From Eledone cirrhosa (Eukaryota): 64,000 nt of DNA. The notes beneath the pieces are model-generated. The model worked only from the letters and a program-made list of their open reading frames with translations, did no database searches and was not told the origin of the DNA. Shown here in pieces: positions 2,609 to 60,311 of this stretch. Location: NCBI GenBank assembly GCA_964016885.1, contig OZ024753.1, positions 29,946,001-30,010,000 on the forward strand, given 5' to 3'. Position 1 is the first letter of the stretch, and the number at the start of each line of letters is the position of its first letter. The position numbers were made by a program, and so were the translations under genes.

Positions 2609-3599
2609 TATGTATATATATATGTATGTACACACACATACTATATATATATACAGTTATATTTAGGATGGTCATATTGCCAGTATTACCAATAAGAAGA
2701 ATACACATATATATATGTATTCATATAGGAATTTATATATATATATATGAGTGTGTATGTATGTACACACGCACACACATACATACACATACACACACAC
2801 TATTATTATGTTCACTTACATTTCCTTGCTAGCAGGGAAAGTGGATGTTAAATGTTGATATTGATGACAATGATGATGATGATGTTCTTATAATGTGTCA
2901 TCTTAAACGATAACTGATATGAAATATTGTCTGTTAATACACAAAAGAAGAAAAAATGAGATATTACTTGAAGTGATATAGTTGCTACCATATGTTTAGG
3001 TATAAACTCTTTTACTTTCTTTGCAAATGTCTTTTCCAAGTTCTTTAAGCTTCTCCTCCAAGAATTCATGTTTTACTTTTTCCTATGTAATTAATATTTC
3101 ATTCTTTTGTGGGTAGAGTTGCGAGGCCTTGTGGTAAGGGTGTTGGACCTATGATCATAATGTTACTTGTTTGATTCCTGGGCTGGGTTGCGTGTTGTGT
3201 TCTTGAGCAAAACATTTCATTTCGCGTTTTTCCAGTATACTCAGCTGAAAATGAGTACCAGCAATAGCCAGGGGTTTAACCGTGCGATGGACTGGCGTCT
3301 TGTCCAGTGGGAAGTTTGTACTCTCAGTCGCTTCAAGCCATGAAACCGGGATAAGCATCGGCTTAACGAGCCTTCTGGCTTAAAACAGAATTTAGATGAG
3401 ACTTACTTTGTAGGCTCCAAATTGGCAGAAGCATTAGAGTACCAGATGAAATACCTCACAGTATTTTATTATGTTCTCGTGCATTCTGAGTTCAAATCCT
3501 GCCATGTCCTATTTGTGTGGTAGACTTAATTGGTCACCTGGTTTAACACCTAGACTTGAAGTACCTTTAATAGAGTCTATTCAGACCAATTTACTCATT

Positions 3600-3800
3600 A
3601 TATATAACGAAGGAATTATGGTAAGGAACCAGATGGACCATAACGCACCAGAGTACTCAATACTTAGGGTCGTAGAGTGGGTAATAGGAAAAAGTATGAC
3701 CCCGATGGCAGAGCTCAAGCCGTATCGACGGCTATTTCAGTCCAGAAATAGCCGTCGAAACGGCTTGAGCTCTGCCGTCGGGGTCATACTTTTTCCTTAT
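3600..3800. mobile_element. Hairpin repeat family (foldback around a hammerhead stem II)
   Basis: 53-bp arms 3686..3738 and 3745..3797 with a 6-nt loop. Right arm reads GAAA-CGGC-TTGAGCTCT-GCCG-TC-GGGG. Related copies at 5720..5765, 7792..7960, 10316..10390, 59720..59850. Confidence 0.65.
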
Positions 3801-5347: not shown

Positions 5348-5764
5348 TTAATCTGTACATAAAATAAATATTTGCTATATGGGTCTTATATATATATGGA
5401 GTTGAGACCGATAGATATTATTAGCAATTGAGCAATTGGAAAGACCAACGGAAACATTGTTCGCTCGGTCCGATTTGACGAAAGTCGATCGTTCCTAAAA
5501 AAATATATATATATATATATGTATTTATTTATTTATACATATATATATATAATATTAATAATAATATTATGGACGAGGTGTCAAATTTTCATTACCTTCA
5601 TTGAGGTGTGATGCTCGTTTTGCGATTGATCAGCTCAAGGTTCGATCTGTGTCGATCTGGCCAGACTCTGAAATCAAAAGCTCATTAGATTTCAGTTAGC
5701 ATAATAAACTATATATATAGCGTTCGGAACTAGCTGTTGAAACGGCCGGAGCTCAGCTGTCGGG

Positions 5765-5804
<40 letters not shown>

Positions 5805-7791: not shown

Positions 7792-7957
7792 TAGGAAAAT
7801 GTTTAACCCCAACGGCAGAGCAAGCCGTTTCAACGGCTAGTCCAGAAATAGCAGTCAAAACGGGGTTAAACATTTTCCTATTATCCACTCTACTACCCTA
7901 AGTATTGAGTACTCTGGTGCGTTATGATCCATCTAGTTCCTTACCACACTTCTTTCG

Positions 7958-7960
<3 letters not shown>
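7792..7960. mobile_element. Second copy of the hairpin family, between TA tracts
   Basis: Inverted arms ataggaaaatgtttaacccc / ggggttaaacattttcctat. Tail 7880..7960 is a near reverse complement of 3600..3690. Confidence 0.65.
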
Positions 7961-8009
<49 letters not shown>

Positions 8010-8053
8010 AAGTTAAATAAAAGTCAAATGATTAAAATTTAGCTTCGTTTATT

Positions 8054-8108
8054 ACTGCTATATATTTTTCAGTGACAGCCATCTTTGGCTGTGACCTCTT
8101 CAGGCAGT
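8054..8108 (-). ncRNA. Type I hammerhead ribozyme, left-arm inverted copy
   Basis: Reverse complement of 8431..8485 with one substitution in stem III (GAAAAATATATA). Confidence 0.75.
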
Positions 8109-8430
8109 TTGAATTAGTATGGTATAGACAAGTACATATGTTGTTTAGGTGTATAATATTGTCAATACTCTGATATGCCCAGTTCCTTGTTGGGTTGTTA
8201 ATTCATTGAGGAACTGGAGTCATGTACATATGTTGTTTAGGTGTATAATATTGTCAATACTCTGATATGCCCAGTTCCTTGTTGGGTTGTTAATTCATTG
8301 AGGAACTGGAGTCATATGACTCCAGTTCCTCAATGAATTAACAACCCAACAAGGAACTGGGCATATCAGAATATTGACAATATTATACACCTAAACAACA
8401 TATGTACTTGTCTATACCATACTAATTCAA

Positions 8431-8485
8431 ACTGCCTGAAGAGGTCACAGCCAAAGATGGCTGTCACTGAAATATATATAGCAGT
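8431..8485 (+). ncRNA. Type I hammerhead ribozyme (intact core), right arm of foldback
   Basis: ACTGC-CTGAAGA-GGTCACAGCCA-AAGA-TGGCTGTCACT-GAAA-TATATA-T-A-GCAGT, immediately followed by AATAAA. Stem I 5 bp, stem II 10/11 bp, palindromic stem III ATATATAT. Confidence 0.8.
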
Positions 8486-8631
8486 AATAAACAAAGCTAA
8501 ATTTTAATCATTTGACTTTTATTTAACTTTATTTTACACTACTCCGGAGTAACCAAACCAACCTGCACACTTCGTCGAGTGCTCCAGCCTGCATACTGAG
8601 GTGTTGGTATACAACCAACATAAATTCAAAA

Positions 8632-32954: not shown

Positions 32955-33088
32955 TAGAAGGGATATTTAATTTATTGGAAATTCAACAAATATAAATGTT
33001 TATAACTGATTCAGAGCACTCGACAGATTTCTGGAGTAAATATTCAATGATATTAAATAAATGGAAACTATATTTATAAAACCATATT

Positions 33089-33150
33089 TATTCTATTATA
33101 TATATTTCAAGAGTACCAAAAACTTTGGTACGCTTTCATCAGATAAAATA
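33089..33150 (-). ncRNA. Type I hammerhead ribozyme, third copy
   Basis: Same fold as 33364..33425 with one further stem II substitution. Confidence 0.78.
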
Positions 33151-33363
33151 CAAAGTGTGTTTTATAAATTTTGACATAGCCAAGGAAACATACCTTATCA
33201 GTTGAATTTTCCTTGGATATCCAAGGAAAATTCAACTGATAAGGTATGTTTCCTTGGCTATGTCAAAATTTATAAAACACACTTTGTATTTAGAATTTAC
33301 ATTATATATATATATATATACACAATATTAAATAAATGGAAACTATATTTTTAAAACCATATT

Positions 33364-33425
33364 TATTCTATTATATATATTTCAAGGGTACCAAAAACTT
33401 TGGTACGCTTTCATCAGATAAAATA
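33364..33425 (-). ncRNA. Type I hammerhead ribozyme, inverted copy
   Basis: Minus strand TATTTTAT-CTGATGA-AAGCGTACCAAA-GTT-TTTGGTACCCTT-GAAA-TATATATA-ATAGAATA; 8-bp stem I. Confidence 0.8.
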
Positions 33426-33551
33426 CAAAGTGTGTTTTATAAATTTTGACATAGCCAAGGAAACATACCTTATCAGTTGAATTTTCCAAGGAAAATTCAA
33501 CTGATAAGGTATGTTTCCTTGGCTATGTCAAAATTTATAAAACACTTTGTA

Positions 33552-33609
33552 TTTTATCTGATGAAAGTGTACCAAAGTTTTTGGTACCCTTGAAATATAT
33601 ATAATAGAA
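33552..33609 (+). ncRNA. Type I hammerhead ribozyme (intact core)
   Basis: TTTTAT-CTGATGA-AAGTGTACCAAA-GTT-TTTGGTACCCTT-GAAA-TATATA-T-A-ATAGAA. Stem I 6 bp, stem II 11/12 bp, palindromic stem III. Confidence 0.8.
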
Positions 33610-35241
33610 GAAATATGGTTTTATATATATAATGTAAATTCTAAAGGGTTGAATACCAGTAGTATCCTCTGGTCACAAAGATTTTTTTTCGTTTTATAAC
33701 TATCTTGTGTGTATATAGTGGGGTGCACAGATCTTTACTGTTGTTTTTTTTTACTGATTATTTTTATTTTGTTTTTGGTTTTCTTTAAATTGATGATGAT
33801 GATGACGACTATTATTTCTAATGAAGTTCTTTGATAAGACCTATTTTCAATGTTCACCGAAAGTTTCTGTTGACTTCAATCTGAAAAGAGATTATGTTGA
33901 CTAAGTCTAACTTCTTTTACTCCTTTCCTTTACCAGGAAAATATTTCATCTGTTAGAGAATATGTTTATCACCAGTGTCATGCATGCCAGGCTAGAATCT
34001 AGTTATCAGTAGTACATTCAAGCATTACTATAGTTATCAGCTAACTTGATAACTGATCTACTCAACAGAATATAACACAGCCACCATTTTAGACTCACCA
34101 AATTCCTTTTCAAACCTACTAGTTTACTAAGTGAGATAATATTTAATTTTTAATAAGATCATTGCTACTTTTGGTGTGTTCATTGTTCATAAATATCTCT
34201 TATAGAAGAAAGAGTGAATATATTATGGGGAATATTTAGATATTCATGTTATATGTAAATCATAGTATTTAAATTGCAAGTGAGCTTGTGGGGGTGGGAA
34301 GGAGAACATGATGGAATGAATGATATCAGATTCTGTTTCAGGTGATACAGATATGTGAATTATACACTGAGAATTAGGTGAAGTTGTGTATTGAATGGAA
34401 ATTAGGTCACTACTATTTATGATTGTTTTACAAATGTTGTGAAGTTGCTTTGTATTTTAGTCAAAGTTACAAAAATACAACAAAAGATTGGCCAAGTTGG
34501 TAAGAAATTTGTTGATGAAAACTGAGTGATAAATTATCTATTGTGAGAATGCTGTGGATGGTAGCCAGGATAGTTTTAGGATAAAATTGCAAATGGATAG
34601 GGCAGGCGGAGGTGGTGGTGGTGGTGGTGCTGCTGAATGAAGTGAAAATATCAGCTGGTGGTAAATAGTAGCCAAAATATAGAGGTATGCCAAAAAAACA
34701 CATATGGAATGAAATAAAGATGAGTTTCTAATTTAGGCACATGGCCAGCAATTTGGGCGTGATGAAAGTCAATTAAATTGTCCCCAATATTCGACTGGTA
34801 TTTTATTTTATCAACCCTAGAAGGATGATATTAGTGGATATATATACTCATGGTTTCTAATTTAGACACAAGGCCAGCAGTTTGGGAGAGATGAAAGTCC
34901 ATTATTCGATCCCCAACATTTGACTGGTATTTTATTTTATCGACCCTGGAAGGAAACAAAGCAAAGTTGATCTCAGTGAGATTCAAACTCAAAATATAAA
35001 GTGCTGGGACAAATACCACAGATTATTTTGTCTGGTATTCCAACAAATCTGCTAATTCACTGCTTTTTGTGGATATAATAAATTCTTATTTTCAATTTCT
35101 GGTTATAATTATTTCTTTTTACTTATCTTGCTAGTGCACTGGAAAGGCATGAATATCACACAGTCTCATTTCTCCTCTTTAAATTTGAGGCAATGTGGTA
35201 CGTAAGAAAACAATTTTGGTGGCATTTCAGTTCAGACGCAT

Positions 35242-58079: not shown

Positions 58080-58122
58080 ACAGTCCTGATGAGGGGTAAT
58101 GACCCAGAAACATGTTGATTGT
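58080..58122 (+). ncRNA. Minimal type I hammerhead ribozyme
   Basis: ACAGTC-CTGATGA-G-GGGT-AATG-ACCC-A-GAAA-C-AT-G-T-T-GATTGT. Stem I 6 bp (one G.U), stem II 4 bp behind a G.A first pair, palindromic stem III ACATGT. Lies in a ~250-bp island between TA tracts. Confidence 0.7.
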
Positions 58123-58927: not shown

Positions 58928-59719
58928 GATTAAAATATTCCCACATATGTTTATATATGTTAAGTTACTATTATACCTTAGTTATGAAATAATTAATAAT
59001 TTTAGTAAATCCTTCAAAATGCTTCATTAATCATTTGAAATAGAATGTATTTTATTAGAAATACTGTCATAAAAGGATTAATGGAACCTGCCAATGTGAC
59101 AAAGAACAATTCATACACACATATCTCTGTTTTGAAACAATTTTAATGCTTGTGTCTTTTATATAATGAAACTTTTGAAAAGCTAATGGTGTGCCATAAC
59201 ATTTTTAGGATTTAATTTGGTGTGCCGTGGATTGAAAATGGTTGACAATCACAGCTCTATAGTATCTAGATTGACATTTGTATAACAAGATATTTTAGTT
59301 CTCCAAGTAAAGAATACAAAGGCAGTATTTACTGTAAAACAAAATATTTTAGTTCTAGTAAAGAATACAAAGGCAGTATTTACTGTTTAACAAAGTTCCT
59401 GATATAAGGTGCTCAGAAGGTCCTGTTACTCTATATTTTTCGAGGCAACTTGTAATTACAGGAGCTAGCAATACAATACACTGAAACACTATTTAGTCTA
59501 GAGTAGGATGACGTTCATTTTGCGCTGTAAATTATATAATACTAAACACAATAGGTTGGATAGATAAAAGACAATTTTTTTTTTTTTTTTTTTATTGTTT
59601 AGCAACATAAAAAAGTAATTAGTTATCTGTTAAAATATATCTTATCAAGTTTTGAAAGTTCTATTCTTTTCAAAATGAAAAGTAGTCTATTTCTGTTGCT
59701 GAGTTATATATATATATTG

Positions 59720-59850
59720 TAGAGACTCGGGGTCCAACGGCTGAACTCTTGCCATTTTGACAGCAAATTCCAGTTTCGAATATGCTGTTGAAATGGCAAG
59801 CATTCAGTCATCGCCTTCTGACTCTCTACTATCCCAAGTATCAAGAACTC
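59720..59850. mobile_element. Diverged copy of the hairpin family
   Basis: Imperfect inverted arms (gtagagactc...ttgccattttgacagc / gctgttgaaatggcaa...gactctctac) next to a TA tract. Confidence 0.5.
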
Positions 59851-60311
59851 TTACTAATTTAAAACTGCTATGATCGCGATATTAATATATATGTATAAGA
59901 ATAAGATTAAGAAAGATGTTGTGATTACATAAAGCGTCTATTCATTATAATTATTTTTATGGCTACCCTTATGGAATCCAAGATACAGTATTTACATTTG
60001 TTGTTGGTATGGGAGTGATTTCTTCAGATGAATATTCGTTTATGTGATATGCTGCAGGCAAAAACATGTTCTTCTTATTGCATGCCCGGCAACTATAGTA
60101 GAAGCCATTGCAATTATTCTGACCTTGCTGCCTGCAAAACTGCTTGATGATAATGTGCAAAGGAACAAGCCTCAGAGCAAACTCAGGACAATATGTTCGG
60201 TGTATGTTTGTGTGTGAAAATTAACAAGGAAAGACAACATGGCGAATATTACTGTACAATGATAATATGTACTAGATTAACGCTTAAGATATGTGTGTAT
60301 ATGTGTATATA

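What the first reader, a model, noticed from the sequence alone, without database searches (positions are those of the whole stretch)
3686..3797. Hairpin family that appears to be a hammerhead folded back on its own stem II
The hairpin apex GACGGCTATTTC-AGTCCA-GAAATAGCCGTC is followed directly by GAAA, a 5-bp stem (ACGGC/GCCGT) and a GUC triplet, i.e. the 3' half of a hammerhead. The CUGANGA half is replaced by an inverted copy. The same inversion point recurs at 7792..7880 and 59720..59830, and a half copy sits at 5720..5765. Inference: stem II acts as a recurrent self-priming or template-switch site, giving catalytically dead, pre-miRNA-sized hairpins.
Basis: inference. Interest (0 to 1): 0.7.

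Follow-up and report, generated by a model that had tools for sequence, protein, structure and literature searches.

The report
Penelope stubs joined at RNA start
This hairpin is one of tens of thousands of tiny head-to-head insertions of a Penelope-type jumping gene; it holds only the back half of a hammerhead ribozyme motif, likely because two separate DNA copies each ran off the element's RNA at a predicted start inside that motif and were then joined, not because one copy folded back on the ribozyme stem.

Summary
The unit is about 190 bp: (TA)n, an 80-nt tail, the palindrome, (TA)n. Arm and tail probes give 52,348 and 44,575 exact genome matches. Long copies lead into a 719-aa RT/GIY-YIG frame with Hydra-clade Penelope motifs. 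The parent core is YUGANAA (U3-A8), not CUGANGA. True stem II is CGGCUA(UUU)/(AAA)UAGCCG around a loop of about 33 nt. Both arms stop 35-48 nt upstream of the cut site (53 of 99 and 47 of 69), none in the 5' strand of stem II. Arms ending at -41 carry an extra cap-like base (84:16 against 35:65 at a control end). One arm always has the tail (26 of 26), and some pairs mix two families. Best reading: twin run-off cDNAs from a capped start inside loop II, joined end to end (0.7); no RNA data. The scan noted this reading before on other DNA of this genome.

The parts
3607..3685 (-). PLE 'tail', about 80 nt, present on one arm only; ends in (TA)n; in full elements it runs on into the ORF
   Evidence: loose ends followed by (TA)n at both tail ends
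3686..3738 (-). Tail-bearing arm: hammerhead 3' half from -35 to +17 relative to the cut site; GAAA changed to GATA (3724), GUC changed to AUC (3706)
3739..3797 (+). Tail-less arm, starting at A(-41) of AGTCCAG (predicted RNA 5' end); holds stem II 3' strand, GAAA 3757-3760, stem III, GUC 3777-3779 and stem I 3' strand 3780-3784
   Evidence: extra-base test
3736..3747 (.). Head-to-head junction TTC|AGTCCA|GAA (blunt join at 3738/3739, or TTC/GAA microhomology); not the parent's stem II loop
7792..7958 (+). Second stub: short arm on - (7792-7839, ends at -31), tail arm on + from A(-41) at 7839 with an 18-nt internal deletion, tail 7880-7958
5722..5766 (+). Solo arm of another subfamily, starting at -40, cut off by (GT)n
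59718..59856 (+). Old, diverged stub of a related subfamily: - arm ends at -35, + arm starts at about -42/-41 (59771/59772), tail remnant 59830-59856
   Evidence: not detected by blastn against L131 at E 1e-3, so the link rests on the alignment

Best explanation
The hairpin is a stub insertion of a Hydra-clade Penelope-like retroelement in a (TA)n repeat, likely made by two separately primed cDNAs that both ran off a capped RNA 5' end inside hammerhead loop II and were joined head to head. Shown: the parent element and its ORF; the two fixed outer ends (with and without tail); the (TA)n target; the pile-up of inner ends at -35 to -48; the extra C on arms ending at -41; the parent hammerhead with a U3-A8 core. 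Inferred: the endonuclease cuts both strands of (TA)n; each DNA end primes RT at one of two internal start sites near the RNA 5' end (by analogy with Frangieh et al. 2024); both cDNAs reach the cap after about 60 and 140 nt; trimming and microhomology joining give the spread of apexes; longer copies need a template jump or read-through RNA. It follows that the mRNA would start between the two halves of its own hammerhead, so only the 3' terminal copy could fold and cut in cis.
For: Parent: L131 holds an inverted truncated copy with tail, a partial tandem copy, tail plus a 719-aa ORF and a tail-less end in (TA)n, the layout in Craig et al. 2021 fig. 2 legend. Wall: tail arms start at -48..-35 in 53 of 99, at -69..-49 in 2, at -84..-70 in 0, beyond -84 in 8, at -34..-3 in 20, at -2..0 in 10, unplaced 6; inverted arms 47, 1, 0, 0, 21 of 69. 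Arms of different length stop at the same template position. Extra base: after arms ending at -41, C:T = 84:16 in the first 100 of 583; after arms ending at -38, 35:65 in the first 100 of 192; Fisher p 1.3e-12 (tallies by eye). Two listed insertions carry it on both arms (C1:79590549 and C1:158523357). Untemplated 5' G in L1/SVA insertions is attributed to the cap (PMC3287187, passages). An AT-rich TATT box starts 29-31 nt upstream of A(-41) in 25 of 25 parents. Exactly one tail in 26 of 26 palindromes. Three insertions join an arm of this family to an arm of a second PLE family (L031, L047, L053). In that second family 15 of 15 truncated arms start within 13 nt of one site about 120 nt upstream of its hammerhead, 3 with an extra G, so there the wall is independent of any ribozyme stem.
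Against: No RNA evidence for a start or a cap. Only a minority of arms end exactly at -41; ends spread over about 14 nt and a second edge lies near -44/-45. The -38 control is imperfect (T there can come from mutation or from the other arm), and RTs can add C at any template end. The TATT box is also the 5' strand of stem II, so its conservation is not independent; the TATA/initiator consensus is recalled, not tested. The two arms share the subfamily spacer in 19 of 25 palindromes against 0.27 expected for random RNAs, which fits one RNA or one active source but also fits fold-back. The three hybrids came from a biased search. The samples are from the start of contig C1 only. In D. virilis Penelope the promoter is internal and TATA-less.
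Confidence: 0.7

Rival explanations
1. Same twin-cDNA joining, but the stop is not a capped start: RT stalls just after unwinding the 3' strand of stem II, or the RNA is cut or processed in loop II (TTTAG and CCAG there also look like 3' splice sites).
For: The wall lies 1-14 nt past the 3' strand of stem II, next to an inner hairpin in loop II; ends are spread, not single.
Against: Extra C is specific to -41; the second family's wall is about 120 nt from its hammerhead; arms keep the AG itself, which splicing would remove; few arms stop inside stem III or stem I.
Confidence: 0.15
2. One reading: one cDNA folds back on stem II or a small palindrome and copies itself (Arkhipova et al. 2013 read junction palindromes as self-priming on an antisense template).
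For: Arms usually share the subfamily spacer (19 of 25); many joints show 1-4 nt overlaps, and some sit on TCGA or GAGCTC palindromes; the TTC/GAA mini-hairpin exists in some parents.
Against: 0 of 99 and 0 of 69 arms stop in the 5' strand of stem II; the tail-less arm is the longer one in at least 25 of 64 pairs; extra base on both arms; two-family hybrids; one pair with clearly different subfamily spacers (L233) and one with a single-base difference between two common spacers (L208).
Confidence: 0.08
3. A self-propagating non-autonomous palindrome (MITE-like or short retroposon) copied from a few hairpin masters.
For: Very high copy number; fixed outer ends; 93-97% identity among the 40 scored matches.
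Against: The apex differs from copy to copy while arms track the subfamilies of the long parent; the inverted repeat does not bound the unit, as the tail lies outside it; every arm letter is colinear with the PLE end.
Confidence: 0.05

Closest known systems
Hydra clade of C-terminal EN+ Penelope-like elements, e.g. Hydra-1_Obim (Craig et al. 2021, PMC8557442; passages, sections 10-11 and supplement rows read)
   Same: Single RT plus C-terminal GIY-YIG frame, RW[K/R], DKT, CxCx5C linker, (TA)n target, inverted 5'-truncated copy and tail, hammerhead at the end; N-terminal part resembles Hydra-1_Obim by eye.
   Different: Core is U3-A8 or C3-A8 with a loop II of about 33 nt, whereas the six Hydra hammerheads seen in File S2 have CUGANGA cores and loops of at most 9 nt; tail about 80 nt, not 30-40; most copies are 190-bp stubs.
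Minimal and variant PLE hammerheads, including the U3-A8 variant of Schistosoma Cercyon (Cervera and de la Pena 2014, PMC4209133; parts 1-2 of 4 read)
   Same: Type I, short stem I, G10.1-C11.1, irregular stem II, palindromic loop III (GAGCTC), U3-A8 core; pairs of motifs on opposite strands 100-700 bp apart already noted.
   Different: Full 5-bp stem III, very long loop II, and a predicted transcription start inside loop II; half-ribozyme stubs outnumber whole cores about 9 to 1 by exact probes.
Poseidon of Anolis in vitro (Frangieh et al. 2024, PMC11167929; parts 1-2 of 4 read)
   Same: Two internal RT start sites that define the tail; both DNA strands cut and extended; AT-rich target; ribozyme not needed for insertion.
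   Different: That work does not describe run-off at a cap or joining of two cDNAs in the parts read; different clade.
Twin priming of L1 and strong-stop DNA of LTR elements (recalled, not looked up)
   Same: Two primers on one RNA with end joining; a short first cDNA that reaches the capped 5' end.
   Different: Here both primers start at fixed internal sites and both arms stop at one place, giving a palindrome; no tRNA primer or poly(A).

Membership tests
EN+ Penelope-like element | Single ORF with RT and GIY-YIG endonuclease | tested here: met
   719-aa frame in L131 with YRDD and VIY..AYIG motifs; atlas neighbours at 0.96-0.99 carry PF26215, some PF01541 or PF00078. Pfam scan itself gave 0 hits, PDB 0.
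EN+ Penelope-like element | Partial tandem pLTR, adjacent inverted 5'-truncated copy, tail at one end | tested here: met
   L131; one tail in 26 of 26 palindromes
Hydra clade | RWK motif, DKT, CxCx5C linker, CxxC and CxH around conserved E and N | tested here: met
   RWR, SDKTG, CNCPDRSIC, CNLCSEE, NKKDELVTACKH by inspection against the text
Hydra clade | (TA)n insertion preference | tested here: met
Hydra clade | Placement in the RT tree | not tested
   no tree built; reference proteins were seen only as cut supplement text
Hydra clade | Canonical hammerhead in the pLTR | tested here: inconclusive
   hammerhead present but with U3-A8 (76 of 100) or C3-A8 (24 of 100) core
Type I hammerhead (parent element) | Three stems around YUGAN(G/A)A, GAAA and NUH | tested here: met
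   N7 free, other core letters fixed in 100 of 100 listed; the three-way fold is the free MFE in 9 of 25 parents, with 3 more keeping all stems; the rest prefer another fold. Rfam gave no hammerhead match among the 150 of 151 rows shown for the window.
Type I hammerhead (parent element) | Self-cleavage | not testable with these tools
   genomic footprint at the cut site inconclusive
Type I hammerhead (the hairpin itself) | Core 5' half in cis | tested here: not met
   absent in all four window copies
MITE | Terminal inverted repeats bounding the unit, derived from a DNA transposon | tested here: not met
   tail lies outside the repeat; parent encodes RT
Non-LTR retrozyme | Tandem units each with a complete hammerhead | tested here: not met
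   dispersed head-to-head half motifs; definition from bioRxiv 10.64898/2026.07.22.740005, part 1 of 5
miRNA or hairpin-siRNA locus | Precisely processed small RNA | not testable with these tools
   no RNA holder listed; no Rfam row at 3686-3797 among those shown

The most novel reading that the evidence does not exclude
Penelope-like elements begin every insertion by making two short 'strong-stop' cDNAs from both sides of the DNA cut; full copies need a jump from the capped 5' end, and failure leaves these hairpins. This family puts its transcription start inside hammerhead loop II, so the 5' copy is disarmed while the 3' copy can trim the RNA end and leave a 41-nt terminal repeat for the jump. 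The stubs would then be a genomic map of PLE start sites and would explain inverted pLTRs.
Probability: 0.4. Interest if true: 0.72.

Novelty: new variant of a known kind. Interest (0 to 1): 0.5.

Why it matters
Craig et al. 2021 name the formation of tandem/inverted PLE structures as unexplained, and Arkhipova et al. 2013 proposed self-priming. Tens of thousands of stubs with a fixed inner end, a cap-like extra base and two-family hybrids point to twin run-off instead, which can be tested directly in the existing in vitro PLE assay. It would also give the PLE hammerhead a role and explain why it is split here. If transcribed, the hairpins would be an abundant source of double-stranded RNA against the element (untested). 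The element class, inverted copy, tail and U3-A8 core are all published.

Tried and rejected
CTGANGA upstream of the apex: 36 genome matches, 30 read, none a parent core. Full reader-type stem with non-inverted upstream sequence: 8 matches, all within palindromic or truncated stubs. Tail-end search for read-through into the ORF: 441 matches, 30 read, mostly ordinary stubs, two or so continuing in parent-like sequence; the parent was found instead from spaced head-to-head pairs. Neptune assignment (my early note) dropped for Hydra. Pfam and PDB searches of the ORF found nothing. Ribozyme-cut footprint: 10 of 99 tail arms placed at -2..0 (2 of them placed at -40 and -37); about 20 of the first 100 of 854 short junctions start at -1..+2 (by eye), most explainable by G microhomology; inconclusive. 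RNA: no RNA holder listed; contigs of four runs laid cannot show starts, and the best holder may be the assembly's own sample. over-extended some arms to -45; one search is the stricter recount but under-extends mutated copies. One search listed each palindrome twice (52 rows = 26). No ORF remnant of this element in the window (tblastn). Literature searches for a run-off or strong-stop model in PLEs found none; the library lacks most subscription papers and Repbase reports, so the model may be in print.

Full report
Observation. The hairpin at 3686-3797 is real: 53-nt arms, loop AGTCCA, MFE -102.9 kcal/mol. GAAA, a 5-bp stem III, GTC and GGGGT follow on the + strand. The window lies in a 3.0-Gb animal genome; a cephalopod is likely, by inference only. 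A DNA search gave 1,967 candidates, 40 scored at 93-97% identity or self; the 30 loci read share both ends and sit in (TA)n, with an 80-nt unique stretch on one side of the palindrome. Exact probes match 52,348 arms and 44,575 tails, with 0 control matches.

Parent. Copies without an inversion extend upstream as ACCCC-YTGANAAG-NTCGGCTATT, about 33 nt, AAWTAGCCGTC-GAAA. Spaced head-to-head pairs were fetched. L131 holds an inverted truncated copy with tail, a partial tandem copy, tail plus an open 719-aa frame, and a tail-less end in (TA)n. The protein has RT and C-terminal GIY-YIG motifs plus RWR, DKT, CxCx5C, CxxC and CxH, the Hydra-clade marks in Craig et al. 2021 section 11. Pfam and PDB found nothing; atlas neighbours are PLE-like. 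No tree was built.

Ribozyme. The 5' core probe matches 5,782 places; in the first 100 listed, position 3 is U in 76 and C in 24, position 7 varies freely and position 8 is always A (by eye). U3-A8 is published for Schistosoma PLEs. The three-way fold is the free MFE in 9 of 25 parents. CTGANGA precedes only 36 arms, and none of the 30 read is a core.

Where the arms stop. I took the first 100 tail matches on contig C1 (99 distinct after merging). Relative to the cut site, tail arms start at -48..-35 in 53, -69..-49 in 2, -84..-70 in 0, beyond -84 in 8, -34..-3 in 20, -2..0 in 10, and 6 were unplaced. An inverted arm lay within 230 nt in 69; these stop at -48..-35 in 47, -34..-3 in 21 and -55 in 1 (one search is a looser version). 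In at least 25 of 64 pairs the tail-less arm is the longer one. In the window, the + arm starts at -41 (3739) and the tail arm ends at -35; 7792, 5720 and 59720 each have an arm starting at -40 to -42. The exact apex is 16 of 100 junctions listed.

Why they stop there. Parents have T or C at -42 in 25 of 25. Arms ending at -41 are followed in the cDNA sense by C rather than T, 84:16 of 100 listed out of 583, against 35:65 of 100 out of 192 for arms ending at -38; p 1.3e-12. The patterns require a following G, which excludes a parent polymorphism. Two listed insertions show the base on both arms. Such a base is attributed to cap copying in L1 and SVA. A TATT box lies 29-31 nt upstream of an initiator-like YAGT (consensus recalled; the box doubles as stem II). 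PLE starts within the pLTR are published for D. virilis Penelope and Chlamys-3. A second PLE family, present at window 8003-8620, has 2,524 probe matches; of 28 contexts from 30 loci, 13 run on into the parent and all 15 truncated ones start within 13 nt of one site, about 120 nt upstream of its hammerhead (the probe only sees arms that reach it).

One cDNA or two. All 26 intact palindromes checked have exactly one tail (loci from several searches, strict match). L031, L047 and L053 join arms of the two families. Against this, arms share the subfamily spacer in 19 of 25 cases, far above the 0.27 of random pairing, so both cDNAs usually come from one RNA or one active source. Frangieh et al. 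2024 showed two internal RT start sites that define the tail, cutting and extension of both strands, and no need for the ribozyme. Together these favour twin priming, run-off at a capped end and end joining (0.7) over a structural stall (0.15), snap-back (0.08) or a MITE-like master (0.05).

Limits. No RNA holder was listed; contigs show the two (TA)n-flanked outer ends but cannot show starts. A footprint of ribozyme cutting is inconclusive. Samples come from one contig end or from the first listed rows, and several tallies are by eye. Of the supplements, only rows of the Craig et al. file were seen; those of the other papers were not opened and may bear on the novelty claim.

Novelty. Inverted truncated copies, tails, (TA)n targeting, the Hydra clade and the U3-A8 core are known. 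I found no run-off or strong-stop model for PLEs in eight searches, in a library that lacks much of the older PLE literature. My reading was written down; later look-ups showed that other agents of this scan reached the same reading on other DNA of this genome. That is not independent support. Verdict: a new variant of a known kind, interest 0.5.

Noticed in passing
window 8003-8620: Palindromic stub of a second PLE family with a canonical CUGAAGA hammerhead (core at 8436 on +, 8103 on -), long stem II and an (AU)n stem III; arms meet about 120 nt upstream of the core, with a 92-nt duplicated piece between them. Parents have CCAAT upstream of the wall.
   Followed up: partly
window 33060-33620: Two adjacent palindromic stubs of a third family with a CUGAUGA hammerhead (33558 +, 33417 -, 33142 -); centres near 33218 and 33488, about 70 nt upstream of the core. 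These give the sub-threshold Rfam miRNA rows.
   Followed up: no
L031, L047, L053 (junction near position 1501): Head-to-head hybrids of family 1 and family 2 arms; tail states differ (both, one, none).
   Followed up: partly
L173, L187, L088 and one search list: About a quarter of full cores are C3-A8, a mismatch, yet whole subfamilies carry it; cutting may be dispensable.
   Followed up: partly
L131:6230-6240: The last copy lacks roughly 430 nt of the 3' UTR present at about 2610-3110; the ends do not look like GT-AG by eye.
   Followed up: no
L002, L009, L013, about 30-120 nt upstream of position 1501: Other short PLE-type hammerheads lie right beside the (TA)n of these stubs; (TA)n tracts collect several PLE families.
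   Followed up: no
L134:3896-6911, L136:2937-3980, L139:2894-4249: Frames of other PLE families (one Neptune-like by eye, two Hydra-like) near the sampled stubs.
   Followed up: no
window 58086-58110: Short CTGATGA...GAAAC motif resembling a minimal hammerhead.
   Followed up: no
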